DNA of 56,245 nucleotides, taken from IMG/VR virus record IMGVR_UViG_3300032321_001382; one strand, given 5' to 3'. Below the pieces are notes generated by a model. It saw only the letters and a list, made by a program, of their open reading frames with translations. It had not been told where the DNA came from and searched no databases. Made by a program: the position numbers and the translations under genes. Source of the stretch: a virus. Taxonomy: Duplodnaviria > Heunggongvirae > Uroviricota > Caudoviricetes. The stretch's first letter is position 1, and every line of letters begins with the position of its first letter. Positions 22,380-50,398 of this stretch are shown here, one piece after another.

Positions 22380-25079
22380 TTACAATTTATGCTCAATCAA
22401 AGTAATCCATATTGCTTGAATACCCCTAGTTTCAAATGAAATATCATTAGAGTCGTTCATAAAATATAATAATTCTTTATCTAAATTAATTTTTATAAGT
22501 GGTTTCATTCCACCTATTGCACTCGTGCGATTAAGGTATCTAAATATCTTTTCGTCACTTTTTAATCTTATATTTTTAACTAATTCTTTGTCAAAATCAC
22601 TCAATTTATATAAATATCCATCTGCTAGTTTCTTATTTTCCGTTTTCCATCCAAAACTACCAACGAAATCTTCCTCGTTAGAATCAACTCTTGATAAAAC
22701 CTCCTTTTCTATATAACCACTTGGTCTACCAATTTTATATTCGTTTTCTTTATCATAATATTTTAAAGCACCGCCTTTCTTGTATTGCATAGAAATAAAA
22801 TCTGGATAATCTGGAGATGGGTTTTTAACTTTACCGCCTTTAGCAAAACCTTTCATATATTCTATTCTACTTTCATCTTCATCTTCATCATATTGTAATT
22901 GTTTAGTTTTATATAAGGCTTTTTCACTTATCCAAGGGAATGAGTTTCCATATTTAAGAGATAATTGATAACGATATGTTTTAACATAATAATTAGTAAC
23001 TCCTGACCTTCGGGTAGTATAACTAGATGATATAGCATTTATAGGTGCTGCATAATTAGTGTTTTGATAAGAGTATACCATATCTCCTACTTTAAATTTT
23101 GGTAATCCAGCCATGTAGCCACCATCGGAAAATTTTGAATCTTGCTCTATATAAAACAAATCGTTTTCAAATTCCAAGCCAATACTTTCTTGACTCCAAA
23201 GCTTACACCATTGCTTTACCTTATTTACAAGCTTCTCGAATTTAGGCTCAAATCCTTCTGGATTAGCAAATGCTACAACTCTTACCGCATCTTCATTAAT
23301 TACCCCCTTATCTACTGATTTAAACCCCCCATCAACCTTAGCAGAATTAAATCCGCCAAATAATGTAGCTAAATATTTTTCTACAACCTTGACTCTATAA
23401 GCTAATTCCTCTTTAGAAACTACTACATTCTTATCTTTTGTAGATGGAACATAAACAGCCATCTGTAATGGTAATTCAAAAGATTTAGATAATCTTTCTT
23501 TTATTTTATATTCTATATTACCACCTCTAGCTAATGGAGTTGATTCACTTTCTGTTATATTATTTTCAATAAAGAAATTTAAAACACCCTCTACGCTATA
23601 TGGAATTACCTCGTCATTTCCTTCACCTCCACCTACGTACCCAGATATGCTTCTGTATTTAGGGTCGTAATATATGTATGCATTATGTGATTTGTTATAA
23701 AAGGTTTTTGTACCATACGACCCCCTCTTTTCTACAAATCCATAAGCTTTAAATAGCATTACAAAGGTATCATTACCATCATCAGTCAATCCACCAGCAT
23801 CGTACTTTTCTTCTGGTTCCTCGCTATCTTCCCCTAAATTTAGCTCATCAAATTTATACGATATATCCTCATCATCTAAATTATCACTTATAATATCAAA
23901 TATTTTGCTATAATTACCATTCCTATCTATTAAATAATCTTCACTAACATCAAATTCGCTCATTAAAACATCATCTTCACTATTATTTATGTAGTAATTT
24001 ATAACATTATCTCTTTTACTTCCAATACCACCGCCTTTTGAAAACTCATCTTCCTCAATCTCTTCAATTATTTCCTCTTTATATCTTGTTGGCATATCTC
24101 TAAACCAATCAGGTATATTATTTCCCTTTAATTTTGAATATTTTTCATTTAATTCTTCATCCGAAACTATAATATCCATACCCTTATCAGCAACAAGCAT
24201 AATTCCTAAAATTTCAATATGACTATATCCCAATCTTTTAAAATGTTCAAAAACCTCTATAGCTACATTATCTTTATTATCCGCATAAAAGAACCCTTCT
24301 TGATATTTTAGACCATCTTCCTCATCAGTATACCCTATCAAATATTTAACCCTATATTTGTTCAATCTCACTCCATCTGCATATTTGCTTCTTTTCTTTT
24401 CGTAATATCCAATTTTCCCAGTTTTAACCAAATACCTTGTTGCAGACAGTCTTTCTTTCGGTTTCATTTTTTTCCAATCATCCTCCCCTACAAAATCTCT
24501 TGCCTCTAAAACCTCTAATGCTGTAATTCCACCATTAGCTAAAATATCTGATTGAGATATAACCAAAATTTCCATATCCATTGGAACATCCCCACCATCC
24601 TCAAAAGCCATAAACATTCCAGTTTTATTCTCAATAATATGCTTTAAATCAACTGCATATACATCTTCTTGTTTATAAACAACCTTATATGTAGTACCCC
24701 TAATTCTTCCAATTTCTATATCGTATAAGTCATTGCTATTCAATGTTATTTTAATATAATTACTTCTTGCATTTTTTATTTTAAAAGATACTCCATTTTT
24801 TAAATCAACAAAGTTATAAGCACCAAGCATAATCTGCAATCTTGAAAATCCACCCAATTGCATAATAATGTTAGAGGCTATTACTCCGCCATCGGCAAAT
24901 GTTCTTAATGTTTTAGCCAAAGATGCTTGTTTAGCGGTCTTTCCACCCTCTTTTTCTAACTTATTCAAGTCTGACATAGAAAGCTTCTCATCGCCCTTGA
25001 TTAAACCTTGCTTGCTAGCCGTTTTTCTTAGCGCACCTCTATGCTTTATAGCATCTTGTATCCATTTGTTCTTGGTCAT
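22380..25079 (-). CDS. 899-aa mosaic polyprotein-like protein with 9 [FYML]xxGG motifs
   Basis: FADGG, FEDGG, LANGG, FSKGG, YDAGG, LARGG, FSDGG, FAKGG and YKKGG (plus degenerate YADGV) separate unrelated modules: a basic N-terminal peptide, a QLGG...TG domain, a DUF3574-like domain and a KOW/SH3-like segment. Confidence 0.9.
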   Translation of the reverse strand: MTKNKWIQDAIKHRGALRKTASKQGLIKGDEKLSMSDLNKLEKEGGKTAKQASLAKTLRTFADGGVIASNIIMQLGGFSRLQIMLGAYNFVDLKNGVSFKIKNARSNYIKITLNSNDLYDIEIGRIRGTTYKVVYKQEDVYAVDLKHIIENKTGMFMAFEDGGDVPMDMEILVISQSDILANGGITALEVLEARDFVGEDDWKKMKPKERLSATRYLVKTGKIGYYEKKRSKYADGVRLNKYRVKYLIGYTDEEDGLKYQEGFFYADNKDNVAIEVFEHFKRLGYSHIEILGIMLVADKGMDIIVSDEELNEKYSKLKGNNIPDWFRDMPTRYKEEIIEEIEEDEFSKGGGIGSKRDNVINYYINNSEDDVLMSEFDVSEDYLIDRNGNYSKIFDIISDNLDDEDISYKFDELNLGEDSEEPEEKYDAGGLTDDGNDTFVMLFKAYGFVEKRGSYGTKTFYNKSHNAYIYYDPKYRSISGYVGGGEGNDEVIPYSVEGVLNFFIENNITESESTPLARGGNIEYKIKERLSKSFELPLQMAVYVPSTKDKNVVVSKEELAYRVKVVEKYLATLFGGFNSAKVDGGFKSVDKGVINEDAVRVVAFANPEGFEPKFEKLVNKVKQWCKLWSQESIGLEFENDLFYIEQDSKFSDGGYMAGLPKFKVGDMVYSYQNTNYAAPINAISSSYTTRRSGVTNYYVKTYRYQLSLKYGNSFPWISEKALYKTKQLQYDEDEDESRIEYMKGFAKGGKVKNPSPDYPDFISMQYKKGGALKYYDKENEYKIGRPSGYIEKEVLSRVDSNEEDFVGSFGWKTENKKLADGYLYKLSDFDKELVKNIRLKSDEKIFRYLNRTSAIGGMKPLIKINLDKELLYFMNDSNDISFETRGIQAIWITLIEHKL

Positions 25080-25095
25080 TTTTTTTTAATTTAAA

Positions 25096-25428
25096 CTATA
25101 TCCAATCAATTAAAGGATTTTTGTCTTTAACGATTCCCTCTTTTGCTTTTTCTAAATTTGAATAATATTGTTCATCTAATAACTTCTCTTCTTTAGTCTT
25201 TACCGAGTCTTCTATATACGAAAGCACCTTATTTACAATAACCCCCGCTACTATGCCAGTAATCAACACATAGGTCAATTCAATACCCTTTGGTAGAACA
25301 AATCGGAAACCTAAAGCATTTTCTCTTGTTGTGGGTATCTTTAAAGAATAACTAAAAACATTTGAAGCAAGTCCTATGAACGTTGTTGACCCAACTACAA
25401 GTATCTCCCTTTTTTGCTTCGTTGTCAT
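25096..25428 (-). CDS. Two-TM membrane protein
   Basis: Two hydrophobic segments. Confidence 0.8.
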   Translation of the reverse strand: MTTKQKREILVVGSTTFIGLASNVFSYSLKIPTTRENALGFRFVLPKGIELTYVLITGIVAGVIVNKVLSYIEDSVKTKEEKLLDEQYYSNLEKAKEGIVKDKNPLIDWI

Positions 25429-25553
25429 TATTCTGCCTTTTTTTGTTTGTTTTTCAAGTAAAAATAATACCCAAAACCAGTTAATACAGTTAATACTGCA
25501 AGTACTTGAATCTCTTTTGTAAGAGCAAATTCCTTTATTTTAGTTGTTCCCAT
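25428..25553 (-). CDS. 41-aa single-TM peptide (MGTTKIKEFALTKEIQVLAVLTVLTGFGYYFYLKNKQKKAE)
   Basis: Hand-translated; stop/start overlap with both neighbours. Confidence 0.75.
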   Translation of the reverse strand: MGTTKIKEFALTKEIQVLAVLTVLTGFGYYFYLKNKQKKAE

Positions 25554-25798: not shown

Positions 25799-27256
25799 AT
25801 GCCTAAAAGAGTCGGTAGAAAATCTGCTTCACAAACACCAGCACCTAAATCAGACAAGATTTATGGGTCAAAGAAAAATAAAACTGGTTCAGCTTCTGAA
25901 CTACAATCTAAAGGCATTAAATTATCTGAAAAAACTGAAAATACATTAAAAGAAAAGTTAACAGAATTCAAGGAAAATAACCCATCCAAGAAAAATATAT
26001 CTATTTCTGACCTCAAAGCGGTCTACAGGAGAGGTTCTGGCGCATATAGCAGCTCTCACAGACCAACTATAACGGGTGGCGCTCCAAATTCTAGGGCAGC
26101 ATGGAGTTATGCTAGGGTTAATAAGTTTTTGGAAAAGGCGGCTGGAAAACCAGTAAAAAAGGCATATGTTCAAGATGATGACTTAATGGCTAAGGGTGGT
26201 AGGGTATTTGATGATAAAGAGCTTTTATCAAGGTGGAAAAATGGGGAAAGTATCGGATTTACTGCCATATCTCATCTTAAAGCAAAGGGTTTAATACCAA
26301 GAGCAGATGGCGAAAAAAGGAAATCTGAAAAATATATGGAAGATGGTGGACAAACAAGCCAAGAAATTCAATGCGTAAATTGTGGATGGAAATGGGAAAC
26401 AGCTGATTCGGATGAACAAGATATGTATATTTGTCATCAATGTGGATTCGATAATACACTATACTATATAAATATTATGAGCAAATTAAAAAAACCAATG
26501 TCTGTTTCTGAAATTTCTCAGGAACATGGAGTTAGTACAGAATATATTGATAATCAATTAATTATAGGTATTAAGCACGAGCTTGAGCATACTGATGATG
26601 AAGGAATAGCTAGAATTATTGCTTTACACCACATCGGAGAGAAACCTAATTACTACGAATTGGTAGAAAAGTACAAGCTAGAGGACGGCGGTCAACCAAG
26701 TAAGTTTTTTCACAAAGCAGAAAAATACGAAATAGCCGATTTTATTAAAAATGAAAGGATTGCCACAAAAGAGTTACTTTGTTCTTCTGATACTAGAATA
26801 TCAAAAGCTATAATATGCCGTGCAAAAATTGATTTTTTTGAGAAAAAAGAAAGAAATACAAGCAATTTTGAGATAAAAAATGCATGGTCAGAAGTGAAAA
26901 ATATATGGGAAGATTGCCTTTTAGAAGTAAAAAATGGGGTAATATACGAATTTAAAGATGGTGGAGAGTGCGGATGTACATCAAAATCTTACAAAGATGG
27001 AGGATTGGCTTATGGGAATAGCCATGACAAAGGTGGTATGCCATTAAAAGTTGAATCTACTGGTCAAAATATAGAAATAGAGGGTGGAGAGGGGGTTATT
27101 AACAAACGCTCTATGCAGATTAAAAAAAGGATAGACTTTGAGGGTAAAAAACTAACACCTTGCCAAATTGTTTCAAAAATAAATGAAATGGGTGGTGGAG
27201 TTAAGTTTAAGTGTGAAGATGTCGAGGAAATATTGGAAAAAGATGGTAAATTTTAG
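25799..27256 (+). CDS. 485-aa mosaic protein with 5 [FYML]xxGG motifs
   Basis: MAKGG, MEDGG, LEDGG, FKDGG and YKDGG separate a DUF5824-like module (AVYRRG.GA...HRP...W.YARVN), a CxxC..CxxC zinc ribbon, a DUF5661-like module (GIKHELEHTDD..IA..IA..H..E.P.YY) and a G.SH..GG...E.EGGEGVIN module. Confidence 0.88.
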   Translation: MPKRVGRKSASQTPAPKSDKIYGSKKNKTGSASELQSKGIKLSEKTENTLKEKLTEFKENNPSKKNISISDLKAVYRRGSGAYSSSHRPTITGGAPNSRAAWSYARVNKFLEKAAGKPVKKAYVQDDDLMAKGGRVFDDKELLSRWKNGESIGFTAISHLKAKGLIPRADGEKRKSEKYMEDGGQTSQEIQCVNCGWKWETADSDEQDMYICHQCGFDNTLYYINIMSKLKKPMSVSEISQEHGVSTEYIDNQLIIGIKHELEHTDDEGIARIIALHHIGEKPNYYELVEKYKLEDGGQPSKFFHKAEKYEIADFIKNERIATKELLCSSDTRISKAIICRAKIDFFEKKERNTSNFEIKNAWSEVKNIWEDCLLEVKNGVIYEFKDGGECGCTSKSYKDGGLAYGNSHDKGGMPLKVESTGQNIEIEGGEGVINKRSMQIKKRIDFEGKKLTPCQIVSKINEMGGGVKFKCEDVEEILEKDGKF

Positions 27257-27786: not shown

Positions 27787-30700
27787 ATGGCAGAACAAAC
27801 ATTAGATTCATTAACCGAACACCTTGAGAATGATGCATTAAGGATTGAAAGAGCAGCTTCAATAGAGGAAAAGGTTAAAGCACAAGAAGAGGAGGGTTAT
27901 GATGGTTTTTCGGATGAGAAACTTAAATTAATACCTTCTCCAAATTTTACTGGATGTAATTCGGTTGGCACAATGTTGCCTATTAATATGGCTGATGAGA
28001 CGGTAACTAATTTATCTCAATTATCACAGCAATTTGATTTCATAACCTTTATTAAAGAAAAACTAGGTTATGCTTCGAATATTAAAGTTTGTCAATCATT
28101 TGCTAGTGAGCAAATTGACGCACTAGTTTTAGCGATAAAATCTTTTGAAAAAAACAATGCTTTTATTTTGGGAGATATGGCTGGTATTGGAAAGGGTCGT
28201 GTATGTGCGGGGGTATTAAGATACGCATATCAAAATGGTTTTATTCCAGTTTTTATAACACATAAACCATATTTATTAAACGATATATATAGGGATATTA
28301 AAGATATAGATGGGTTTGGATATGATAAAAATAATAATAAAATCATGCCACAACCATTCATCTTGCATCAAGACGGTATTATTAATGATAGAGATGGAAA
28401 ATTAATAGCCGTTCCACCATCTGGTAAAAGTACAAATGAAATATGCAAAGCGGTTAGTGAAAAGGCAGAAAAAAGAAGCATTATTGAATTACCAAAAGAA
28501 TATAATTGTGTTTTCTTGCCTTATTCTACCATATCAATGAGCAAAAGCCCAATTAAACAAAATTTTTTAGAGGCTATTGCTCCAAAATGTATTTTTGTTT
28601 TTGACGAAAGCCATAACGCTGCATCATCAAAATTAGATTCTAATATATTGAAGAGGGCAATACCTATCGTGAATGCATCAAAAGCTGTATTATTTAGCTC
28701 TGCAACATACGCTAAGACACCTTATGTTTTCGGATTATATGTTGTTAAAACAGCACTAGCATCAGCAGTTCCATCTTTAGATAGCATAACCGATGCATTA
28801 AAAGTTGGTGGTGAGAATGTTTCCGAATATATCGCTAGTGGATTGGTAAAAGAGGGTCAAATGATTAGAAGAGAGAGGAGTTTTGGGGATTGCAAAAAAG
28901 TAACTGATTATGTCGGAACAACTAGAAGTTTAGACGTTTTAGGTAGAACGGTATATAATCAATTACAAGATGATACACAAAGACAATTTTATGATGAGGC
29001 TATTGGATATTTTAAGGAATTAAGAGACTTTTCAAAAAGTGACTTATCTAAAAATGCTGTTTTAAGAGCAGTTCTTAGACAATGTACATTACAAGGGAAA
29101 GAGATAATAGATTCGAGTTTATATTATGCAGCAAAAACATCAGCATCAGATAGTACCGCTAGGGATATTTTTAAAAGAGAATATAGGGGTAAATGGATTG
29201 TTACTTCTAGCATATCTGATTCAATTTCAAGATATAAGCAAACATTTCGTGAAAATTTATTTTTAGCTATTAAAGCAAAATATGCTGCCGATAAAATAAT
29301 AGAATCATTATTAACCCCAGTAAATTATACCAACGTAGATGGTACTATGCACAATGCACCAATGAAACCATTGATTGCAATAAGAAATACTGGAGAGGCA
29401 ATATTCAATGAATTAAAGCTTGAAGATGGCGATGAGATTAACAATGATTTTGCAGAATATTTGAGAGCTATTTATTTAAAAATGTTTTCTGGAACATTTG
29501 TAATTCGTAAAGTTGATAATAATATTTTCGAATCAGTATCAAGCTTATTAGATAGGGATGCTGATTTTGAAGAAGCGAAACTTGAATATGAAGTCGAATT
29601 ATCTGATTTCTCAGACAATGGTGAAAGAATTACCGAAATACAATCAAGATTAAACTCGTATACATCTAATATACCATTTTCAGTTATAGATTATTTAAGA
29701 AATAGAATAGAAACAACTGAAAGACCAAGTTTTTATTATACCGATGGCAATAATATTTATCCAAAATACGGACAAGCTGCTAGTAGTAACTTTATAATGG
29801 GAGAAGGAACTTCTAGAAACCATATGTTGAAATATAATCCAGAATCTGGTAAGTGGGCTTATATTAAAAACGAAAGGGAAAAGAGTACAACGCAATTATT
29901 TAGAGCGTTTAATAATGGCGCAATTGATGTTATGATGATAAACGTTGTTGCTTCTACTGGTGGTTCTGCTCAGAGTTCGCCAGCCGAGGGTATTGATACA
30001 AGACCAAGAAATATGTTTATTATTCAATTTGAGTTGGATATAAATACTGAAGTTCAAAAGAGAGGTAGGATTAATAGAACTGGGCAATTAAATAGTCCAA
30101 CTTATACATATGTTATTAGTAAAATACCAGTAGAACTTAGAACATACTTAATGTTTAGAAAGAAACTAAGGAAATTAGATGCCAATACAAGTGCAGACCA
30201 AACAGCTTCTTCTCAAACATCTGAGATAACTGACGATAAGGGTAAAACAGTTGAAGATATTTTTAATTCATATGGTTTTGATGTTTTTAGTAAAGATTTC
30301 ATTGACCTAGCTCAAAACATAGAATATAAGGTAATTTACGATGATTTAAACTTTAGATTTAAAAATAGTAGAGCTGCTGGGCAAGCCGAGCAAGAGGAAT
30401 TTAATATTGAATCTTTTAATGCATTTGTTAGAGAATTGGAGCTTTATCCAGCTGAATTCCAAGAGAACTTCTTTAATCAAATGAATGAAAAATATACTGA
30501 TAAAATAAATCAGTTAAAAGCAACAAATGAGTATCAGCTTGAATTAGAAGCTAAAAACTACAAAGCAGCATTAAAACAAAGAGTTGTTATTGGTTTGAAT
30601 AGCGGAGATACGGTATTTTCATTACCATTGTTCATAACGGATTATTATACATTAGATGATAAGAGAGTTTGGAGTAAAGATAGGGTTCAGCAAAAAGTAA

Positions 30701-32535
30701 CAGAATTGGCAACACTTCCAGATGGAAGAACTTTAACACCAAGAGAGTTTCATATTGCCCTAATTGAAGATTATCAAGAAGAATGGCAAAGGTCACAAGC
30801 TATATTATTAGAGAATTACAGAGCCACATCTGAACCAAAAAGAGAGGATTTTGATGATGGAGATACGTATGCAGTTGCTATGGAAAGATTTATGGCAAGA
30901 GAGGGAGCTTTGAGGATTAGAGAAAGAGAGGATAAAAATAAGATGTTAGACTTGATGCGCTTCTTTACACCGAATAAGGCTGTTCAGTTTGAGGGTAATG
31001 ATGGAATATTTGTAGGTTATAAAATAAAGGATACTGGTTCAAGATTCAAATATTCTAATGGAAGTATTGAGTTCTTATTCTGCTTTTTATCAAAATATCC
31101 AATCTTACACTTCAAGGTAAGTTCTGATTACGAAAACTTGAATTTAATTAAAAATGTATCAAGTTTATTTGGTGGAGATAGGCTAAATAGGGCAATACAA
31201 GAATGGAAGCCCGACTATAATAAAAGAACTATTAAAAGATTCTTATCTGGAAATATATTGAGTGGTATTATTGAAGCTAATAAGAAAAAAATAGCTGGTG
31301 ACATAACTGGATGGTCTTTAACTAGATTTACAAATATTGATGGAACATTGAATACGGCTGTTCAATTAAAGTTTGAAAAAGACTTGCCAGCAAGTACTTA
31401 CATACAAAGCTCTAGTCAAAGTTTATCTATTACATCAGATAACATTGATTTTATAGAGTATGTAAAAATGATACCTAATTCTTATAATGATATATATCCT
31501 ATTTGGAATATAGAAAACGATAAAGCAATCGATAGGTCACTTTGCATAATCAAGAGGAGAAGTTACACAAGCGCAACTGATATTATTTCTATTGAAATTT
31601 TACAACAATATGTAAGAGACAAAAGCGGTAATATTAAAGAAATAGTTATACCAGCAAGTGGTATTGCTCCATCAAGATATAATCATATATATCACGATAA
31701 TTTATTCTTAGATACATATAGGGAATATCAAATAGATAATGGTGTTAAGAGGTCAATAGAATATGGCAAAAAGATAACTTACGAGAAGTCTAGAAGTGGA
31801 GGAACTTCAATAAAGACTGCTTTTAATAAAATGACCGTTAACATAAAGTCTTATAATTTTGATTTATCTAATCCATCTGGATATGAGGCTTGTAAAAATT
31901 TCTTTACAGAATTGCATACCAAATACGATATGGCTTTTAATTTCAGAAGTAGTAATAGTGATTACTATAACATTGATAATCAAGCTGATATATTTGACCC
32001 AATAAAAAAAGTTGAAAACAAAAAATCATTTGAAGAAGGTGTTTATCAATATAGATTTATTAGAAAAGTTTCAGATGCAATCATAGATAGTATTCCAAAT
32101 GTAATCAATAGGACATATGAAGGAGCTAATGGGGGTATGGAATTAAGCTATCCTATGACTCCAACGCTTCTTCCATCATATGAAATGAAACCTTATAAGT
32201 TCCCTAATGAGGTAATGATTAAGCTAGTATTTTCTATATTAAATGATGCTCAAAAATTAGAATTCGCAAAAAAATTAGAAGATAAGGCTCAAACAGATGA
32301 TGCTTATGAAATTGGACAATTTGTAAGTTCATATCTATCAGACAAAACCGTGAATATTATATACTTTGTTGGTGACTTGAGAACATCGGAATATGGACTT
32401 ATATTCAAAGAATATGCTCTGAAAAATGATGTAAAACAAATTTTCTTTGAAGAAAAAGAGGAAATAATTAAAAAAGATTCTAAAACAAAGGTAACTTTTG
32501 AAGATGCCGAAAAATTTTTATTTGCACTTATATAA
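27787..32535 (+). CDS. Strawberry-notch-family SF2 helicase (AAA_34 plus Helicase_C_4) with a long C-terminal extension
   Basis: AFILGDMAGIGKGR, FVFDESHN, LFSSATYA and Q.RGRINRTGQ. Confidence 0.9.
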   Translation: MAEQTLDSLTEHLENDALRIERAASIEEKVKAQEEEGYDGFSDEKLKLIPSPNFTGCNSVGTMLPINMADETVTNLSQLSQQFDFITFIKEKLGYASNIKVCQSFASEQIDALVLAIKSFEKNNAFILGDMAGIGKGRVCAGVLRYAYQNGFIPVFITHKPYLLNDIYRDIKDIDGFGYDKNNNKIMPQPFILHQDGIINDRDGKLIAVPPSGKSTNEICKAVSEKAEKRSIIELPKEYNCVFLPYSTISMSKSPIKQNFLEAIAPKCIFVFDESHNAASSKLDSNILKRAIPIVNASKAVLFSSATYAKTPYVFGLYVVKTALASAVPSLDSITDALKVGGENVSEYIASGLVKEGQMIRRERSFGDCKKVTDYVGTTRSLDVLGRTVYNQLQDDTQRQFYDEAIGYFKELRDFSKSDLSKNAVLRAVLRQCTLQGKEIIDSSLYYAAKTSASDSTARDIFKREYRGKWIVTSSISDSISRYKQTFRENLFLAIKAKYAADKIIESLLTPVNYTNVDGTMHNAPMKPLIAIRNTGEAIFNELKLEDGDEINNDFAEYLRAIYLKMFSGTFVIRKVDNNIFESVSSLLDRDADFEEAKLEYEVELSDFSDNGERITEIQSRLNSYTSNIPFSVIDYLRNRIETTERPSFYYTDGNNIYPKYGQAASSNFIMGEGTSRNHMLKYNPESGKWAYIKNEREKSTTQLFRAFNNGAIDVMMINVVASTGGSAQSSPAEGIDTRPRNMFIIQFELDINTEVQKRGRINRTGQLNSPTYTYVISKIPVELRTYLMFRKKLRKLDANTSADQTASSQTSEITDDKGKTVEDIFNSYGFDVFSKDFIDLAQNIEYKVIYDDLNFRFKNSRAAGQAEQEEFNIESFNAFVRELELYPAEFQENFFNQMNEKYTDKINQLKATNEYQLELEAKNYKAALKQRVVIGLNSGDTVFSLPLFITDYYTLDDKRVWSKDRVQQKVTELATLPDGRTLTPREFHIALIEDYQEEWQRSQAILLENYRATSEPKREDFDDGDTYAVAMERFMAREGALRIREREDKNKMLDLMRFFTPNKAVQFEGNDGIFVGYKIKDTGSRFKYSNGSIEFLFCFLSKYPILHFKVSSDYENLNLIKNVSSLFGGDRLNRAIQEWKPDYNKRTIKRFLSGNILSGIIEANKKKIAGDITGWSLTRFTNIDGTLNTAVQLKFEKDLPASTYIQSSSQSLSITSDNIDFIEYVKMIPNSYNDIYPIWNIENDKAIDRSLCIIKRRSYTSATDIISIEILQQYVRDKSGNIKEIVIPASGIAPSRYNHIYHDNLFLDTYREYQIDNGVKRSIEYGKKITYEKSRSGGTSIKTAFNKMTVNIKSYNFDLSNPSGYEACKNFFTELHTKYDMAFNFRSSNSDYYNIDNQADIFDPIKKVENKKSFEEGVYQYRFIRKVSDAIIDSIPNVINRTYEGANGGMELSYPMTPTLLPSYEMKPYKFPNEVMIKLVFSILNDAQKLEFAKKLEDKAQTDDAYEIGQFVSSYLSDKTVNIIYFVGDLRTSEYGLIFKEYALKNDVKQIFFEEKEEIIKKDSKTKVTFEDAEKFLFALI

Positions 32536-32544: not shown

Positions 32545-33747
32545 ATGGAAAACAACGAAATCATACAACAAGTAATTGACACAATTAGAACTGACATTTT
32601 AACTAATAAGCAATTCTTAAAATCTATTTTATCTGATATACAATTAACAGAACAAAATATCGACCCAAATTTAATATTAAAACTTATGGCAGAATTAAAT
32701 GCACAACAACAAGCGCCAAGACCAGTTTCAAATGCACCAAAATCTAAAGGCGAAAAAGGTAAAGCGGTAGCAAGACCAATCGCTATTGGCGAAGGAAGTA
32801 CAGAAGCTCAAATAGTTTCAGACTTACTAGAAGGAAACAATGTTTACCTTATGGGTAAAGCTGGTACTGGTAAAACATATTTAGCAAAAGCTATTGCAGA
32901 ATCCGTAATGGGACAACCAGTTTATATTATTAACTGCTCTCAATGGACATCTCCTATTGAAATTCGTGGTGGACAAACTATCAAGGGATATGAAGAGGGG
33001 CAATTGATTAAAGCATGGGCAAATGGTGGTATTTTAATATTAGATGAGTTACCTAAATTAGACCCAAATACGGCTGGTTTATTGAATGATGCACTTGCTG
33101 AAGCTGCTGCTCAACCAAAATATGATGCAGATGGTAAGGTTATTGAGTCTACTGTGCCAATTATCGTGAATGGTAAGGGTCAAAAAATTAAAAAAGGGCA
33201 AGACCAAGAAGATGAAAACATAAAATATAGATTTTGTGTAATTGGTACTGGTAATACCGATATGATGAATGTTGGTAATAAATATGGTGGAAACCAAAGA
33301 CAAGACTATTCATTAGTGGATAGATTTGCGGGTTCTTTCTATACTTTAGATGCCGACCCAATAAAAGAGAAAGAATTGACATATCCGTATGTATTTGGAG
33401 TAGCCAATGCCATGCGTAAATTCTTGAATAATATTGATGCAGTTCAATCAATTTCACTTCGTACTATGTTGAATTTCAATAGAACATACGAACAAGAAAT
33501 GTTATATAAAATAGAGAGTCCTTTTGCTGATGATATTTATAGCAATGATGGTAGACAAGTCGCTCCTAAAAGTGTAGAAGATAGTATAGCAAGCTTTTTG
33601 AGTATCTTAGAACCTAATATGAGAAAACAATTAGAAGACGACCCCGATTTTAGACAAGAAAGAAATAGAAAACCAGATGACGAAACTTTTATTAGACAAT
33701 TTCAGGCAAAATACGGCTTAAATCCAAGAACTGGAAAGGCTATCTAA
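32545..33747 (+). CDS. MoxR/CbbQ-like AAA+ ATPase
   Basis: Walker A GKAGTGKT, Walker B LILDE, GTGNT and QDYSLVDRF. Confidence 0.9.
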   Translation: MENNEIIQQVIDTIRTDILTNKQFLKSILSDIQLTEQNIDPNLILKLMAELNAQQQAPRPVSNAPKSKGEKGKAVARPIAIGEGSTEAQIVSDLLEGNNVYLMGKAGTGKTYLAKAIAESVMGQPVYIINCSQWTSPIEIRGGQTIKGYEEGQLIKAWANGGILILDELPKLDPNTAGLLNDALAEAAAQPKYDADGKVIESTVPIIVNGKGQKIKKGQDQEDENIKYRFCVIGTGNTDMMNVGNKYGGNQRQDYSLVDRFAGSFYTLDADPIKEKELTYPYVFGVANAMRKFLNNIDAVQSISLRTMLNFNRTYEQEMLYKIESPFADDIYSNDGRQVAPKSVEDSIASFLSILEPNMRKQLEDDPDFRQERNRKPDDETFIRQFQAKYGLNPRTGKAI

Positions 33748-35116: not shown

Positions 35117-35402
35117 TAAAATAGCCTCAAAGGCAAAAGAAATGAGATTCCAAGCGTCAAGAGGGTACAGCACTCATGCTGCGTCATCTTTGCCGTATGA
35201 GCAACTTATAGTCGTTTGTGATGATTACCCAGATTTTATATTTTTAGTTAATAAAAATATGCATTTTGAAAGAAATTCGATAAATAATAGCTCTTATGAT
35301 ATAATTTCATTTGATAAAAATGGTGATTACGTTAAAAAAGAAGATGTTGCCGATTTTGATAGGAGTTTTTTCAGGGATATGAAAGTTATAAAAAAAGTTT
35401 AA
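35097..35402 (+). CDS. Hypothetical protein
   Basis: 101-aa ORF in operon. Confidence 0.7.
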   Translation: MTSEKIDKIASKAKEMRFQASRGYSTHAASSLPYEQLIVVCDDYPDFIFLVNKNMHFERNSINNSSYDIISFDKNGDYVKKEDVADFDRSFFRDMKVIKKV

Positions 35403-37498: not shown

Positions 37499-37499
37499 G

Positions 37500-39955: not shown

Positions 39956-41068
39956 ATGAATACTCAAGAAGTTATAGCAAAACTTAACAAGTATAAGGAA
40001 ATGCTTGAACAAGAAAGTGATGCAGATATTAGAGCTCGCTATGCATCAAAGATTTCTCAATTGGAAGTTAGTTTAAAAGAAGCAGAACAAAAAGTTGAAA
40101 AATTAGAAGAAAAAGTAGCTACAGAAGAAAAAAAAGAACTTTCCGAAGCGGAAAAAAAAATAAAGAAATATAAAGATTTCTTGGATAATGAAAGCGACCC
40201 AGATTTAAAAGCTCGTTACCAAAAAAAAATTAAAGAATTACAAGATTCATTAAAAGAGGTAAAAGAGGAAATTAAGGAAGAGAAAAAAGACGTAGCTGAA
40301 CAAAAAGCGGAAATTAAAAAAGCCGTTAAAGCCGTTAAGTCTGCTAAAGCAACTAAAGTCGAAAAGAAAGAAGCTATTAAAAAGGTTGAAAAGAAGGTTC
40401 GTGAAAGAAAAGAGGTGAGTGTTAAGAGAACAAGAAGAGGTAATAAGATTAAGAAAATCATAACAGATTTAGATAAGTTAATCGAAAGCAATAAAAAACT
40501 TAAACAAAAATATACTGGAAAGGGTGTTGATGTAAAAAAAGATGCAGCTCGTTCTGCAAAACCTTTTGGATATAGATTTGCGGGTAAACATGATTATCGT
40601 GTTCCAACTAAAGCTCAAATAAAAGAGGGAAAAGCTAGTGGTAAAGTAGTTTATGAATCAAGAGCTAATCGTTCTGATGTTTTCCCTACTCGTGCGGCTA
40701 AATTGGCTGATGGTGGAAAAACTCAAGGATACGATGATAGAGAAGATGAAAGATTATCAATGGAGCATGGTAAAATATCTAGTAAGGACTTAAAAAGCAC
40801 ACATTCACGCAGAGATGATGCTCAATTTGAAGAAAGAATGGCTAAAGGTGGTAAAGTAGGTCACACACACGAAGACAAAGTGAGATTTGCTAAACCAGCT
40901 GGATGGAGATGGAAAAATACGGCTGTAACAAAAAGAATAATAGATAAATCTGAATTATCAAAATCGCCATCTAAGGCTATGAGAGAAAAATATCCTAATT
41001 ATGTATATTTTGAAGATAGATTAAACAAAGCGGACAACAAGCCTTCGAGAAAATATTTAAGTGAATAA
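39956..41068 (+). CDS. Coiled-coil/basic mosaic protein with LADGG and MAKGG motifs
   Basis: Duplicated N-terminal coiled coil, Lys-rich linker, two AKP.G.R...VY.E.R.N..D modules and a GYDDREDERL module. Confidence 0.88.
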   Translation: MNTQEVIAKLNKYKEMLEQESDADIRARYASKISQLEVSLKEAEQKVEKLEEKVATEEKKELSEAEKKIKKYKDFLDNESDPDLKARYQKKIKELQDSLKEVKEEIKEEKKDVAEQKAEIKKAVKAVKSAKATKVEKKEAIKKVEKKVRERKEVSVKRTRRGNKIKKIITDLDKLIESNKKLKQKYTGKGVDVKKDAARSAKPFGYRFAGKHDYRVPTKAQIKEGKASGKVVYESRANRSDVFPTRAAKLADGGKTQGYDDREDERLSMEHGKISSKDLKSTHSRRDDAQFEERMAKGGKVGHTHEDKVRFAKPAGWRWKNTAVTKRIIDKSELSKSPSKAMREKYPNYVYFEDRLNKADNKPSRKYLSE

Positions 41069-41556: not shown

Positions 41557-41874
41557 ATGAAGTCTATTGAAGGTTTAAGAATGTTATTAGAGGAAGACGA
41601 ATTGGGAAAACATAAGATTGAAGAAGTTGTAAAAAAAAGGATTAATGGATTGGATGAGTTGGCTGAAGACGGAGATTTAGAGGCTCAAGAATATGCTAAA
41701 GGACTTAGAAATCTATTAAGAGAAAGCTTTAAACATGGTGGAAAAATTAGTAAATTAGAGGAACAAGAAAAGACTTATATGAATTTGCTTAGAAAAACAC
41801 AAAACCAAGCCAATAGGACTTTGATTATAAAAAAATTAGAAGACATCGACAAACAAAAAAAATCTTTCAAATGA
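41557..41874 (+). CDS. Small two-module protein split by FKHGG
   Basis: An acidic module and a basic module either side of the motif. Confidence 0.75.
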   Translation: MKSIEGLRMLLEEDELGKHKIEEVVKKRINGLDELAEDGDLEAQEYAKGLRNLLRESFKHGGKISKLEEQEKTYMNLLRKTQNQANRTLIIKKLEDIDKQKKSFK

Positions 41875-44777
41875 AAAGAGTTAGAAAATATACATATTTA
41901 CCAAAAGAAGAAATTGAGGTAATTGAAACAAAAAGTGGCGAAACCATTAAAAGTAAAGAAATACTAGATGGTAACTATGTAAAATCAAAGTCTGCTGCTA
42001 AAAAAGTAGTTAAAAGTAAATATGCTAAAGGTGGTAAGGTAGGTGTAAAAGAGTATAAAATATACCCTATGAAACCTACTGGTGTAAAAGGAATGATAAC
42101 AAATGATTATGATAATATGGAAACATTTGTTGGAACTGAAGATGAAGCAATAACAAAAGCAAAAGAAATAGCAAATTCAAATCCTAATTTTGTAAGAGTT
42201 GAAGTAAAATTGCGATTAAAAACCAAAACCAATACCGTTGGTATAGTTGATGGTCAAAATAAACAATATGCTAAAGGTGGTAAAACGCCAATAGTAAGAA
42301 CACAATTTGAAGAAGAAGAATTCGAATATGCTGATGGTGGTAGAATTAAAGTTGGAACTTTCAACGAAGAACAACTTATAAATAAAGAAGATAAAAAAGC
42401 TGTTGAAAAAGCAAAAGAAGAAAGTGGATTGAAATATGTTGAAACAAAAATTATTAAGAAAGGTGGCAAGATGTATATGGAAGTTTATTTAATTCCAAAT
42501 GAAGAATATTATAATTCATCAAAGTTTTCCGATGGCGGTATGATGGCTAAAGGTGGAATAACAAAGTACACTACTAATGAAATGATGGATATAATTTATA
42601 AAGATTTAGGAATTGTTGAAATGAAAAAATATACATCGGAAGATGGTTATATTGATATAGATGAATTAGCTAAAAAAGCTGGATTTAGACGCTCATATAT
42701 AATAGGGAAAAATGATTATTGGAGAAAAGATATAACTGATGATTTTGCTGAAGGCGGTATCCCAAGTCAAATACCAAGTAGGATTGTAAGGAATGCAGCA
42801 AAAGCAGCTAAAGAACATAATGAGGATGTAAAAATATATTATAGTAATAAAGATAAAGAGTTCCACTATTCTATAGTTAGAGCCATCAGATATAATGATG
42901 TTTTAGTTGGAGTTGTTTCACCAAGTGGAGAAGTAAAAAATGACGATAACTTTTTTTATAATCAAGAAGATTATAATAATTATATTTCCAGAAGGGATGA
43001 AGTGTTAGAACAAACTAATAAGATGGCTGATGGCGGAAATGTAACAGACAAAGAAGTTGCTGATAGTAATGTTCAAATGTTAAAAAGCAATATTAAATCT
43101 ATTAAGCATCATGCAGAAGAGTTAGAACACGCTATTAAGGACAATTCAGAAGTAGAAGGATGGGTTTTAGCTAAAGCCGATAGGGCTGCAACTGCTATGT
43201 CTGATATTACCCACTACCTAGATGGCAGAAAGATGGCTGGTGGTGGAATGGTTGCTGGATACTATTATAAAGACAAAGGTGGCAGTGAGTTAAGATTTGT
43301 AGGACCAGATAGCAAAGATGAAAACAAGGGCATATTTAAAGATGGAGACAAATATTTTAACAAGTCATATGATGATTTCGAAGAAGAGAAAGAAAACAAA
43401 TCATTTTGGTTTGGAAATGGAGGTTATATGCCTAAAGGAAAATCAAGAAAACTATCAGTGTCTGAAAAGGCGGAAGAAATGGTTGGTAGAAATACTTGGA
43501 ATACATTAGATGCCGTAGAAAAAGAAGGCGTTATTGGCGAGTTAATCGCTGATGGAGCATTAGCCATAACTATGGATACTGGCGGTATAATTGATGCCAA
43601 TGATTGGAATAGCTCATCTACCGATGAAAAAATATATGCATTAAAAAAGGCTGGTTATTCTTTTAATATGGCATCAGAAATGAGCTTATTACCATATGAA
43701 GAAGTTCCAATGTGGGTAAGAGAAGATTTTAAAAAGCACGTTATAATCATCGGAGATTATCACATCCATTTAAATAATTTACCAAAAAGCTTCTATGGAG
43801 TTGATATGGGTAAATTCTTGGTTTTCAATGGTAAAGAAGAATTATTACATTCTAGCGACACTTTAGAAGAGGCAAAAGCATGGGCTACTGAAGAAGCAAG
43901 ATTAGATAAAGAAGATTCACAAGATTACGAAATGGTTTCTGATTGTTGCGGTGCTGCAAAAGGAGAATATACCGATATATGCCCAGAATGTAATGAACAT
44001 TGTTCTTGGGAAAAATCATATTTTGCAGAAGGTGGTGTTACCGAAGCAGTTAAGTTTAAGGTTGTATATAAAATTAAGGATGCCGAACCAAAAGAGAAAG
44101 TTTTTGATAACGCTGAAAAAGCTGAGTTTTTCTTAGAAACAATCAAAGAAGATGACGACATAGAATCTGCAAACTTAGTTGAGGTAAAACCAGAAAAAAA
44201 GGCAAAACCAACAAATCTATTTGCTGCAGCTAAACCAGCTACGACAACAGCTGCTAGTAAAAAAGGCAAAGAAGATGTTTTTGTTTCAGGAATAGCTGAT
44301 GAAATAGCTCGATATGACGCATTAAAGGCTATAATTAAGAATGCAGAATCTGAACAATCACTTATTGGAGATAGGTTAAAAGAAGTTGGGGTAGATAAGT
44401 TTTTAGAACTTTATGAGTTGAGAAGAAGAAATCCAGATACATTTAACCTAGCCGATGAGGACAAGAAAATTATGTTTATCGTAATGGATAAGTATAAAAA
44501 AGTAGAACCAGAGAAGGCTGCAATGTTGGAGAATTATAGTGGTTTATTAGAAACAATAACTACTTATAAATTCAATCCAGAATTACTAGACAGAACTGGT
44601 GAAATAGTAAGTAGGTTAATAATGGAAAGTTCAGAACTAACAGATGAAGAAAAAGCTAACTTAATAATTGCAGAAACTAAGATGCAAATTCAAAAAGGAG
44701 CAATTGATAGATTATTGGACTATGATAATCCAGCACAAATATTCACATTAATTGAACCAATATTGGCATTGAAATAA
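41871..44777 (+). CDS. 968-aa mosaic polyprotein-like protein with 11 [FYM]xxGG motifs
   Basis: YAKGG x2, YADGG, FSDGG, MAKGG, FAEGG x2, MADGG, MAGGG, FGNGG and MDTGG delimit modules, including a helical WV..K module and a CCGA...CPEC.EHC zinc module. Confidence 0.92.
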   Translation: MKRVRKYTYLPKEEIEVIETKSGETIKSKEILDGNYVKSKSAAKKVVKSKYAKGGKVGVKEYKIYPMKPTGVKGMITNDYDNMETFVGTEDEAITKAKEIANSNPNFVRVEVKLRLKTKTNTVGIVDGQNKQYAKGGKTPIVRTQFEEEEFEYADGGRIKVGTFNEEQLINKEDKKAVEKAKEESGLKYVETKIIKKGGKMYMEVYLIPNEEYYNSSKFSDGGMMAKGGITKYTTNEMMDIIYKDLGIVEMKKYTSEDGYIDIDELAKKAGFRRSYIIGKNDYWRKDITDDFAEGGIPSQIPSRIVRNAAKAAKEHNEDVKIYYSNKDKEFHYSIVRAIRYNDVLVGVVSPSGEVKNDDNFFYNQEDYNNYISRRDEVLEQTNKMADGGNVTDKEVADSNVQMLKSNIKSIKHHAEELEHAIKDNSEVEGWVLAKADRAATAMSDITHYLDGRKMAGGGMVAGYYYKDKGGSELRFVGPDSKDENKGIFKDGDKYFNKSYDDFEEEKENKSFWFGNGGYMPKGKSRKLSVSEKAEEMVGRNTWNTLDAVEKEGVIGELIADGALAITMDTGGIIDANDWNSSSTDEKIYALKKAGYSFNMASEMSLLPYEEVPMWVREDFKKHVIIIGDYHIHLNNLPKSFYGVDMGKFLVFNGKEELLHSSDTLEEAKAWATEEARLDKEDSQDYEMVSDCCGAAKGEYTDICPECNEHCSWEKSYFAEGGVTEAVKFKVVYKIKDAEPKEKVFDNAEKAEFFLETIKEDDDIESANLVEVKPEKKAKPTNLFAAAKPATTTAASKKGKEDVFVSGIADEIARYDALKAIIKNAESEQSLIGDRLKEVGVDKFLELYELRRRNPDTFNLADEDKKIMFIVMDKYKKVEPEKAAMLENYSGLLETITTYKFNPELLDRTGEIVSRLIMESSELTDEEKANLIIAETKMQIQKGAIDRLLDYDNPAQIFTLIEPILALK

Positions 44778-47637: not shown

Positions 47638-47640
47638 AAT

Positions 47641-48759: not shown

Positions 48760-48760
48760 T

Positions 48761-49147: not shown

Positions 49148-49182
49148 ATAATAAAAAATATTGGGAAAACCAAAAAAAATGT

Positions 49183-49190
49183 TAAATTTG
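49183..49190 (+). promoter_or_regulatory. Bacteroidota -7 element (TAAATTTG)
   Basis: 20 nt upstream of ATG 49211. Confidence 0.6.
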
Positions 49191-49210
49191 AGCAACAAAC
49201 AAACACAAGG

Positions 49211-49783
49211 ATGGCAAACACAAATCTAACTACCATAGTTGATACCTATGGATGTATGTCTAATTATCAAGAAATGAAAGCATTTTTTGTTAATCCTACT
49301 AACGCTAGGGGTATACAAGATGCTTTGTCTAAATATGGTACTCCAAAAGAAAATAGACCATCTACTAATTCTGGGTTTGGTCTTTTCAAAAAAAATTGGG
49401 GTTGGACAGATTATTGTGATTGGCAAAATATTGGAAAGTTTTATCAATATGCTAAACTTTCCGTTCAGTTTCCTATCTTAACAACTCCGCAAACAGATTG
49501 TACTAAGGTATCTTCGGCTATTTTAGCGTTAAATTCACAATTAGCAAATGTTGCAAATGTAAAAGATGCTAATATTAAAACTGCACTAACAGACGCTATT
49601 AATGACAAATTAGCAGAGTATCAATCATTTAATGTAGTTAACGATTGCGACAATTTAGTTAAAAATCAATCTTATTCATTAACAACTGGGGCTACATCTA
49701 AAACTGCCATTTATATATTTGGTGGCGCAGCTGTGCTTATAGGCTTGTTTTATGCTATAGCTGTATCAAGAAAAAATAATTAA
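49211..49783 (+). CDS. Tail-anchored protein with 4 conserved Cys (paralog of 52324)
   Basis: Colinear similarity to 52324-52962; C-terminal TM and RK. Confidence 0.88.
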   Translation: MANTNLTTIVDTYGCMSNYQEMKAFFVNPTNARGIQDALSKYGTPKENRPSTNSGFGLFKKNWGWTDYCDWQNIGKFYQYAKLSVQFPILTTPQTDCTKVSSAILALNSQLANVANVKDANIKTALTDAINDKLAEYQSFNVVNDCDNLVKNQSYSLTTGATSKTAIYIFGGAAVLIGLFYAIAVSRKNN

Positions 49784-49786
49784 CAT

Positions 49787-50398
49787 ATGTTACCAATAAT
49801 TTTAGTCGCAGTAGGCGCATACTTAATAGGGGATTCGGTTTTAGAAGATAAAAAATATTCTCATGGCGGTAAAACCCAAGGCTATGATGACAAAGAAGAT
49901 GAAAGACTTGCTATGGAGCATGGTAAAATGTCTAAAAAAGATTTAGATAGTACACACGCACGCAGAGATGATGCAAGATTTGAAGAAAGAGGTAAAATGG
50001 CTAAAGGTGGTGATGTGAAAGATTATAGTGGTAATTATTATTCTACTTATGACTTTGTTCATGTAAATAAGCTACAAAAAGAAGCCGATGCTTTATTTGG
50101 AAAAGATTGGGAAGCTGAAGATGATGCAAGTCAAATTCTTGTATTAACTGATAGTCTTGGAGGTGGATATACTACTTATGTATCAGAAGGTAAAGGAGAT
50201 TGGGAACGCCTTAGACAGAAGCATAATCTTTATAATGAAACTAATGACGATAACTATGATATTTTTGTAGTTCATTATGGTAAAAAGAAAAAAATGGCTA
50301 AAGGTGGTAAGTTAGTAGGCAAACAAAAGAACTTAGATGTCAATAAAAATGGCAAATTAGATGCTGAAGACTTTAAGATTCTAAGAAAAGGCAAGTAG
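49787..50398 (+). CDS. N-terminally anchored mosaic protein with YSHGG and two MAKGG motifs
   Basis: Hydrophobic N-terminus, GYDDKEDERL module and an EF-hand-like DVNKNGKLDAED module. Confidence 0.88.
   Translation: MLPIILVAVGAYLIGDSVLEDKKYSHGGKTQGYDDKEDERLAMEHGKMSKKDLDSTHARRDDARFEERGKMAKGGDVKDYSGNYYSTYDFVHVNKLQKEADALFGKDWEAEDDASQILVLTDSLGGGYTTYVSEGKGDWERLRQKHNLYNETNDDNYDIFVVHYGKKKKMAKGGKLVGKQKNLDVNKNGKLDAEDFKILRKGK

What the first reader, a model, noticed from the sequence alone, without database searches (positions are those of the whole stretch)
22380..50398. Diglycine-punctuated mosaic polyproteins: candidate protease-release system for a cocktail of virion effectors
Seen: at least 33 [FYML]-x-x-G-G motifs (MAKGG, YADGG, FAEGG, MEDGG, FSDGG and others) in seven proteins: 22380 (9), 25799 (5), 37500 (2), 39956 (2), 41557 (1), 41871 (11) and 49787 (3). 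They sit between unrelated 20-200 aa modules (zinc ribbons, DUF5661-like, DUF5824-like, DUF3574-like, EF-hand-like, basic peptides). The codons vary and both strands carry the motif, so selection acts on the peptide. The adjacent 1582-aa helicase has no such punctuation. Established: ASFV pS273R cleaves GG|X in pp220 and pp62, adenain cleaves (M/I/L)xGG|X, and T4 gp21 and phiKZ gp175 cleave internal head proteins after Glu. Inference: the motifs are maturation-protease sites that let the virus package and then release many small effectors from one precursor. I do not recognise a described bacteriophage system of this kind.
Basis: partly seen in the sequence, partly recalled or inferred. Interest (0 to 1): 0.92.

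Follow-up and report, generated by a model that had tools for sequence, protein, structure and literature searches.

The report
Gly-Gly joint motif in phage polyproteins
Several large proteins of this uncultured big phage are chains of small swappable modules joined by one conserved seven-residue Gly-Gly peptide, which matches the only mapped cutting site of a phage tape-measure protein and so is probably a cutting signal, though no cutting has been shown.

Summary
[FYML]xxGG occurs 35 times in the seven named proteins (3,644 aa) against about 5 expected from shuffling. A stricter form occurs 22 times there and never in the other 86 ORFs (14,255 aa).

The full motif is K-[M/Y/F]-A-[D/K]-G-G-x-[V/M/T/I]. 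It lies at module edges:
- Pfam and PHROG matches end 1-3 residues before it.
- 58% and 44% of homology breakpoints fall within 6 residues of it (16% and 14% expected).
- AlphaFold places every copy in low-confidence coil.
- Free-standing homologues in cultured phages lack it.

The motif is lineage-wide: 54 homologues carry 562 copies against 50 expected, and 2,802 clusters share modules.

The locus is a polyvalent-protein locus in the sense of Iyer et al. 2017, with a Sbno helicase and an LPD23/double-zincin protein here, and ART-PolyVal in related loci.

Cleavage is inferred, not shown. The analogy with adenain or ASFV proteases is not supported: the register differs and no Cys protease was found in 74 kb. 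The best anchor is phage T5 pb2, cut at R|AEGGMM. Lambda gpH carries two copies in or just after the range given for its unmapped cut. This scan has seen similar joints in other genomes. I found no published description.

The parts
22380..25079 (-). Protein A, 899 aa. A mosaic of about 10 modules with 11 regex hits, about 9 of them true joints.
   Evidence: phrog_20603 covers 4-58, phrog_9437 covers 67-157 and phrog_3543 covers 536-649; each ends 1-3 aa before a motif. 2,802 representative clusters share modules.
25799..27256 (+). Protein B, 485 aa, with 5 joints. Modules include DUF5824, DUF5661 and a zinc ribbon.
   Evidence: DUF5824 covers 53-128 and MAKGG starts at 130. DUF5661 covers 238-291 and LEDGG starts at 294.
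35402..37498 (+). Protein Z, 698 aa: LPD23 domain plus two zincin-type HEXXH motifs (HEIQH 356, HELGH 603). It is the only protease-like gene apart from a wall peptidase in the 74 kb read, and so the candidate processing enzyme.
   Evidence: Both HEXXH motifs and E366 are invariant in 109 homologues. Z homologues appear to share contigs with F homologues, judged by six identical longest-contig lengths. No homologue within 10 kb in the more distant loci L007 and L008.
37458..39302 (+). Protein C, 614 aa: two MEDGG joints flanking a 15-aa Cys peptide, a (QG)n repeat and a 320-aa C-terminal domain.
   Evidence: Not enriched on its own.
39956..41068 (+). Protein D, 370 aa: coiled-coil N-terminus, then a 40-aa module between LADGG and MAKGG.
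   Evidence: The same module occurs in protein G and in L007 and L008.
41557..41874 (+). Protein E, 105 aa, one FKHGG.
   Evidence: Not significant alone.
41871..44777 (+). Protein F, 968 aa, 11 joints: a variable N-terminal module string followed by a conserved C-terminal half.
   Evidence: All 11 motifs lie in pLDDT<50 coil. The C-terminal domain 803-968 resembles roughly 200-aa free-standing proteins of tailed phages.
42525..42557 (+). Tandem double joint FSDGG-M-MAKGG, 6-residue period.
   Evidence: The same doubling occurs 81 times in the homologues.
49787..50398 (+). Protein G, 203 aa: N-terminal membrane anchor, 3 joints, a module shared with D, and a C-terminal EF-hand-like tail.
27787..32535 (+). 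Context: 1582-aa Strawberry-notch-type helicase, without the motif.
   Evidence: An Acinetobacter phage record annotates the region matching residues 85-378 as N-6 DNA methylase.
32545..33747 (+). Context: MoxR-type AAA+ ATPase, conserved in related locus L008.

Best explanation
Proteins A, B, D, F and G clearly, and C and E probably, are small-module polyvalent proteins. Each is a string of 15- to 160-residue units, many of which exist as free-standing small phage proteins elsewhere. Every unit is joined to the next by one fixed connector, K-[M/Y/F]-A-[D/K]-G-G-x-[V/M/T/I].

Shown: the connector is real, selected at the peptide level, unstructured, placed exactly at the homology breakpoints, absent from free-standing versions of the modules, and shared by thousands of metagenomic proteins.

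Inferred: the connector is a proteolytic processing signal of the same type as the maturation site of the T5 tape-measure protein (cut between the position-3 residue and Ala: R|AEGGMM). On this reading the chain is made as one precursor, probably taken into the particle with the neighbouring Sbno helicase and zincin protein, and cut into separate small proteins before or after delivery.

The enzyme is unknown. The conserved double-zincin LPD23 protein at 35402-37498 is the only candidate encoded in the sequence read. A host enzyme or self-cleavage is equally open, because how lambda gpH is cleaved is still unknown.

The shared connector also works as a recombination joint that lets modules be swapped, lost or doubled in frame.
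For: - Enrichment: (strict motif 22 vs 0).
- Consensus and 81 tandem doublets.
- 54 homologues carry 562 motifs vs 50 expected.
- Related loci L007 and L008 show the same two-class pattern: 8-13 motifs per protein in some, 0-3 in the rest.
- Profile matches stop 1-3 aa before the motif: (LPD11 at 145-212 between motifs starting at 137 and 217).
- BLAST breakpoints within 6 aa of a motif: 58% vs 16% expected (p 1e-53) and 44% vs 14%.
- Alignment A3: flanks diverge just outside the two motifs. There is a variable 0-10 aa spacer after Gly-Gly. A copy at the C-terminus of its protein ends before the motif.
- AlphaFold: module core pLDDT >90, with confidence falling below 50 at the downstream Gly-Gly. 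In F all 11 motifs lie in pLDDT<50 coil.
- Free-standing homologues in cultured phages match only the stretch between motifs, residues 66/67 to 159. Vibrio phage nt-1 ORF041 has no motif.
- T5 pb2 is cut after R1127 (PMC10038345), and the sequence there is VPR|AEGGMMYPG.
- Lambda gpH has FATGGFT (733-739) and YATGGYV (778-784). They lie in or just after the 691-730 range the paper explores for the end of gpH*; the exact site and the catalyst are unknown (PMC12617516).
- Polyvalent-protein context: LPD23, ART-PolyVal, Eco57I, SNF2 and DUF2958 in related loci. The paper's theme is processing by zincin peptidases.
- Z has two invariant HEXXH motifs.
Against: - No cleavage product has been observed for any of these proteins.
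- T5 has Arg, not M/Y/F, at position -3, and it is a single mapped site.
- Z has no homologue within 10 kb in the more distant loci L007 and L008.
- Motifs within 15 residues of protein ends are as frequent as expected from overall density, not depleted (25 and 28 observed vs 31 expected). A pure separator would not need them there.
- The AlphaFold model of F is poor overall (mean pLDDT 51.6), so 'all motifs in coil' is weak evidence for that protein.
- Packaging into the particle rests only on gene neighbourhood.
Confidence: 0.5

Rival explanations
1. Uncut hinge and shuffling adaptor. The proteins work as intact beads on a string. Gly-Gly gives flexibility, and the conserved coding stretch (ATG GCT AAA/GAT GGT GG) serves mainly as microhomology for in-frame module exchange.
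For: Breakpoints coincide with the motif. Tandem doublets look like modules deleted between two joints. Terminal motifs are not depleted. No dedicated protease is conserved next to the genes.
Against: Codons vary, so DNA identity is low. A plain hinge does not need fixed hydrophobic residues at -3 and +2 or Ala at -2. The spacer between Gly-Gly and the next module core varies by 0-10 aa, so those residues are not part of either fold. The same signature marks a real cleavage site in T5.
Confidence: 0.2
2. Docking tag. The seven-residue peptide is a short linear motif bound by a phage or host partner (for example packaging machinery, the MoxR ATPase with its partner, or a chaperone). Repeats give avidity, and no cutting is involved.
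For: Two fixed hydrophobic anchors six residues apart and tandem repeats. The motif is kept after a short basic leader at the N-terminus of many proteins (MKGRRLYDDGG...) and at extreme C-termini (...YEIGGL). P1 DarB shows that a short peptide can direct packaging (PMC9024508).
Against: No partner is identified. Free-standing and protein-terminal copies of the modules do without the motif. The motif sits only between modules rather than once per protein, unlike known targeting signals.
Confidence: 0.17
3. One reading: an adenain/ASFV pS273R/Ulp1-like cysteine protease cuts after Gly-Gly.
For: Gly-Gly with an upstream hydrophobic residue resembles the adenain and ubiquitin-type sites (established knowledge). 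44 kb of the contig, and any genome beyond it, could not be searched.
Against: The register differs by one residue: the hydrophobic residue sits at P5, not P4. No clan CE, C39 or JAB family hit in 1-74 kb. The T5 site is cut before Ala. Relatives of the F C-terminal domain are in tailed phages, which are not known to use such proteases.
Confidence: 0.06

Closest known systems
Polyvalent proteins of phages and conjugative elements (Iyer, Burroughs, Anand, de Souza, Aravind 2017, PMC5512222)
   Same: Many unrelated domains in one polypeptide. LPD domains are present: LPD23 in the neighbouring protein Z, LPD11 inside an F homologue. The locus context matches: ART-PolyVal, MTase/helicase and a zincin-like peptidase. 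The predicted delivery with the DNA and predicted peptidase processing are also the same.
   Different: The modules here are mostly tiny (15-160 aa) and of unknown function. They are joined by one fixed Gly-Gly connector that the paper does not mention (0 hits for 'glycine' or 'linker').
Maturation cleavage of tape-measure proteins: T5 pb2 -> pb2* + pb2C (Linares et al. 2023, PMC10038345); lambda gpH -> gpH* + gpHC (PMC12617516)
   Same: The core A-x-G-G-x-hydrophobic is at the mapped T5 site (R1127|AEGGMM). It occurs twice in lambda gpH, in or just after the range given for the unmapped cut. In both cases the site separates a functional C-terminal piece, and the catalyst is unknown.
   Different: The proteins here are not tape measures. 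They carry up to 11 sites each, not one or two, and position -3 is M/Y/F rather than Arg.
T4 internal proteins and phiKZ/SPN3US ejection proteins cut by the prohead protease
   Same: Concept only: proteins carried in the head are trimmed at a short repeated motif.
   Different: Those sites end in Glu (L/I-x-E or S/A/G-x-E) and depend on a known prohead protease. Neither the motif nor such a protease was found here.
Adenain and ASFV pS273R polyprotein processing
   Same: Gly-Gly in the site, and polyprotein logic.
   Different: The register of the hydrophobic residue differs. No clan CE protease was found. The virus lineage is different.

Membership tests
Polyvalent proteins (Iyer et al. 2017) | Single polypeptide of a phage or mobile element combining several unrelated domains. 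| tested here: met
   Separate PHROG and Pfam families match successive segments of A and B. Modules recur independently in 2,802 clusters.
Polyvalent proteins (Iyer et al. 2017) | Presence of LPD or other signature domains (ART-PolyVal, MPTase, DarB-like helicase/MTase). | tested here: met
   LPD23 in 35402-37498. LPD11 in homologue P0005. ART-PolyVal and Eco57I in L007 and L008. Sbno helicase. The seven proteins themselves carry only DUF5824 and DUF5661.
Polyvalent proteins (Iyer et al. 2017) | Delivered into the host with the DNA. | not testable with these tools
   Only gene neighbourhood bears on this. A Pseudomonas phage record annotates the gene under the LPD23/zincin match as 'structural protein'.
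Tape-measure protein maturation site (T5, lambda) | A-x-G-G-x-hydrophobic signature at the site. | tested here: met
   against the consensus.
Tape-measure protein maturation site (T5, lambda) | The carrier is a tape-measure protein. | tested here: not met
   No TMP family hit. The architecture is a string of small globular modules.
Tape-measure protein maturation site (T5, lambda) | The peptide bond is actually cut. | not testable with these tools
   Needs proteomics.
Adenain / ASFV pS273R (clan CE) processing | Site (M/I/L)-x-G-G|x, with the hydrophobic residue at P4. | tested here: not met
   Here there are two residues between the hydrophobic residue and Gly-Gly.
Adenain / ASFV pS273R (clan CE) processing | Clan CE cysteine protease encoded by the virus. 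| tested here: inconclusive
   None in 1-74 kb, but the Pfam screen was partial: my own scans of selected ORFs and precomputed hits for called genes.
Prohead-protease-processed internal head proteins (T4, phiKZ) | Cut after Glu at L/I-x-E or S/A/G-x-E, by an S77-type prohead protease. | tested here: inconclusive
   The repeated motif here has no Glu requirement. No prohead protease was found in the sequence read, but the genome is incomplete.

The most novel reading that the evidence does not exclude
hydrophobic|A-x-G-G-x-hydrophobic is a general phage 'cut here' signal. On this reading the same reaction that matures tape-measure proteins (T5 pb2, lambda gpH; catalyst unknown) is used by large Bacteroidota-type phages to release dozens of small effectors from polyvalent precursors. 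The reading predicts the unmapped lambda gpH cut at F733|A734 (or Y778|A779), and it offers a simple reporter for finding the enzyme.
Probability: 0.3. Interest if true: 0.85.

Novelty: new variant of a known kind. Interest (0 to 1): 0.68.

Why it matters
If the joint is a processing site, it defines the products of thousands of uncharacterised mosaic phage proteins. That would turn unreadable 500- to 2,000-residue orphans into lists of discrete small proteins.

It would also show how big phages deliver many small host-takeover or anti-defence factors from one gene.

Finally, it links these proteins to an open question: how tape-measure proteins are cleaved. A 2025 paper (PMC12617516) states that it is unknown how lambda gpH cleavage is catalysed and that the precise site is unknown.

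Even if the joint is never cut, it is a compact in-frame shuffling adaptor that could be reused for building modular proteins.

Tried and rejected
- The search for related loci in IMG/VR with F, A and Z found no relatives.
- No whole genome is held for this window, and the contig record cannot be searched through handles.
- Walking the contig stopped at the 3,913-aa fibre gene (68252-79994), whose full sequence I could not obtain. 74-118 kb is therefore unread. Earlier scan notes list no capsid or protease genes there.
- The fibre is full of Gly-Gly, but of another kind (FVGGG beta-roll repeats), so I excluded it.
- Z gave no hit against PDB sequences or NCBIfam.
- Foldseek of the phrog_9437 module against PDB gave nothing below E 0.048.
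- Complex prediction of Z with F residues 200-250 (double joint) returned no verdict (score 0.01). It counts neither for nor against binding.
- Test for split versus fused genes at E|F: E has no homologue among the F relatives, so the test could not be made.
- Internal translation starts at the Met of MAKGG: rejected, because about half of the sites have Phe or Tyr.
- A full-text search for MADGG, MAKGG, YADGG, FADGG, YAKGG and FAKGG found nothing in a phage context.


Full report
**Where the window lies.** The window is bases 1-56245 of a 118,093-bp metagenomic scaffold (ENA ERZ28594751, KRAE22-1 scaffold_6). GC content is about 30% and no close relative exists among deposited phages. A 120,245-bp contig on record carries an identical copy of protein F. 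Relatives of one neighbouring gene lie on contigs of 180-211 kb, so the genome is probably larger than the scaffold.

**The observation.** I translated the seven named ORFs and counted [FYML]xxGG.
- Counts are 11, 5, 2, 2, 1, 11 and 3, or 35 in total.
- Residue shuffling expects 1.3, 0.5, 1.7, 0.07, 0.08, 0.84 and 0.44.
- Five proteins are individually enriched. The proteins at 37458 and 41557 are not.
- The 1582-aa helicase has 1 copy against 0.73 expected.
- Against the other 86 ORFs of the window the rate ratio is about 9 (Fisher p 5e-14).
- The stricter form [FYML][ASEK][DKEN]GG.[VIMTL] occurs 22 times in the seven proteins and never elsewhere.
- Codons differ from site to site, and one carrier is on the minus strand.

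One regex hit (MQLGG in protein A) belongs to a module core and is not a joint.

**The motif.** In 54 homologues of protein F there are 562 copies against 50 expected.
- The consensus is K-[M/Y/F]-A-[D/K]-G-G-x-[V/M/T/I].
- 81 pairs stand exactly six residues apart (MADGGMMAKGG). The typical spacing otherwise is 50-90 residues.

**The motif is the module boundary.** Five lines of evidence agree.
- Profile matches stop 1-3 residues before it. In B, DUF5824 covers 53-128 and MAKGG starts at 130; DUF5661 covers 238-291 and LEDGG starts at 294. In A, phrog_20603 covers 4-58, phrog_9437 covers 67-157 and phrog_3543 covers 536-649, with motifs starting at 61, 159 and 650. In homologue P0005, LPD11 covers 145-212 between motifs starting at 137 and 217.
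- Protein A hits 2,802 representative clusters at E <= 1e-3. Its segments 58-170, 423-524, 516-657 and 765-899 occur singly, at any position, in proteins of 144-2,197 aa.
- Internal BLAST alignment ends lie within 6 residues of a motif in 58% (A) and 44% (F) of cases, against 16% and 14% expected. The hits are related, so the p-values overstate independence.
- In an alignment of 36 copies of the 58-170 module, similarity ends just outside the two flanking motifs. A spacer of 0-10 residues separates the upstream Gly-Gly from the module core. A copy at the end of its protein stops before the motif, and some copies at the start of a protein lack it.
- AlphaFold with that alignment gives pLDDT >90 for the core, falling below 50 at the downstream Gly-Gly. 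The model of F is poor (mean pLDDT 51.6), but all 11 motifs fall in low-confidence coil between secondary-structure blocks.

**Free-standing versions.** tblastn against deposited phages matches only the stretch between motifs (residues 66/67 to 159) in Vibrio, Ralstonia, Sinorhizobium and other large phages. In Vibrio phage nt-1 it is a separate 118-aa ORF that starts at the module core and ends where the module ends, with no motif. The modules are therefore small phage proteins in their own right, and the motif appears only where they are chained.

**Context.** The plus-strand run holds the following genes:
- B;
- a Strawberry-notch-type helicase;
- a MoxR ATPase;
- a 452-aa protein with no family match;
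- a 698-aa protein with LPD23 and two HEXXH motifs (Z);
- C, D, E and F;
- tail-anchored membrane proteins;
- an M15 wall peptidase;
- G.

More distant loci from sister samples (L007, L008) repeat the two-class pattern. Some proteins carry 8-13 motifs and the others 0-3. Their neighbours carry ART-PolyVal, Eco57I, SNF2/Zeta-toxin, MoxR, DUF2958 and glucosaminidase domains. This is the gene set that Iyer et al. 2017 called polyvalent proteins. They proposed that such proteins enter the host with the DNA and are processed by zincin-like peptidases. That paper contains no occurrence of 'glycine' or 'linker'.

**Is it cut, and by what?** Nothing here shows cutting.

Adenain needs its hydrophobic residue one place closer to Gly-Gly. 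I also found no clan CE, C39, JAB or prohead protease in 1-74 kb. The remaining 44 kb of the scaffold could not be read.

Linares et al. 2023 map the pb2 cut after R1127, and the T5 sequence there is VPR|AEGGMMYPG. That site has the same A-x-G-G-x-hydrophobic core, and even the commonest 'GGMM' continuation.

Lambda gpH carries FATGGFT (733-739) and YATGGYV (778-784). In a six-frame scan of lambda ORFs of 60 aa or more, the strict motif has only two other hits, one of them in an unannotated 66-aa ORF. A 2025 paper (PMC12617516) says that:
- gpH* corresponds approximately to residues 1-710, and the authors varied its modelled length between 691 and 730;
- the precise site is unknown, and it is unknown how cleavage is catalysed;
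- T5 and lambda are the only tape-measure proteins shown to be cleaved.

So both tape-measure proteins known to be cleaved carry the motif: at the mapped site in T5, and in or just after the estimated range in lambda. This is the only experimental anchor. It suggests a cut before Ala rather than after Gly-Gly.

**The candidate enzyme.** Z belongs to a uniform family of about 705 aa. In 109 homologues both HEXXH motifs, E366 and many other positions are invariant. Six F-homologue and Z-homologue pairs have identical longest-contig lengths, which suggests shared contigs. The LPD23/zincin part also matches genes of Pseudomonas phages, one annotated 'structural protein'. Against Z: it has no homologue within 10 kb in L007 and L008. 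Lambda has only the gpC head protease, and as far as I recall lambda tails mature independently of head genes.

**Weighing the readings.**
- A plain hinge does not explain the fixed hydrophobic and Ala positions, which belong to neither neighbouring fold.
- A docking tag explains the tandem copies and the motifs kept near protein ends. Terminal motifs are as frequent as density predicts.
- A processing signal explains the T5 match, the equivalence of modules to free-standing proteins, and the polyvalent context.

I put processing at about 0.5, hinge/adaptor at 0.2, docking at 0.17 and the clan CE model at 0.06. Whatever its biochemical role, the joint clearly also acts as the point at which modules are exchanged, deleted and doubled.

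**Novelty.** The class (polyvalent proteins) is known. The conserved joint, and its identity with the tape-measure maturation signature, is not described in any paper I could search. The scan has met similar Gly-Gly joints in several other genomes, so this is a recurrent, lineage-wide feature rather than a peculiarity of this window.

Noticed in passing
window 36503-36523 (Z residues 368-374): The sequence [F/Y]-A-T-G-G-N lies eight residues after the first HEXXH of Z. It has the form of the joint motif. Gly-Gly-Asn is invariant and Ala is present in 103 of 109 homologues. It could be an active-site turn, a pseudo-substrate or a self-cleavage site.
   Followed up: partly
window 50294-50398 (G residues 170-203): The last module of G (MAKGG + KLVGKQKNLDVNKNGKLDAEDFKILRKGK, an EF-hand/dockerin-like loop) also matches near the C-terminal ends of two unrelated joint-rich proteins in L007 and L008, at 88-94% identity. 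It may be a common tail piece.
   Followed up: partly
homologues P0056-P0204: Joint-rich proteins reuse a few end caps. N-terminal caps: MKLFTKEI..KLF.QY (perhaps the DUF2958 that is precomputed on other such proteins), MAKY.Y.YHEERGEF, and a membrane anchor MIPYLLA.AGGYLIG. C-terminal caps: KTY...EA..AAKRIAGAMRKK, GWKHRKK and CGCWHYEIGGL. These may be targeting or anchoring signals.
   Followed up: no
window 38148-38330 (C residues 231-291): A run of about 30 Gln-Gly dipeptides inside protein C. It is likely a length-variable coding microsatellite.
   Followed up: no
L002 14719-20783 (scaffold 68252-79994): A 3,913-aa Cys-rich fibre gene made of FVGGG-type beta-roll repeats. Already reported by the scan.
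   Followed up: partly
phage lambda gpH residues 733-739 and 778-784 (L005): Two copies of the joint signature lie in or just after the range given for the unmapped gpH -> gpH* cut. This predicts F733|A734 or Y778|A779 as the site.
   Followed up: partly
window, first Gly codon of the joints: GGC is used in 11 of 35 first-Gly positions, against 36 of 307 Gly codons overall in these proteins. This is a mild codon bias of unknown meaning.
   Followed up: no
window 44277-44777 (F residues 803-968): The C-terminal domain of F resembles free-standing proteins of about 200 aa in tailed phages. It also matches 630- to 735-kb 'huge phage' records. This argues that the virus is a large tailed phage.
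   Followed up: partly
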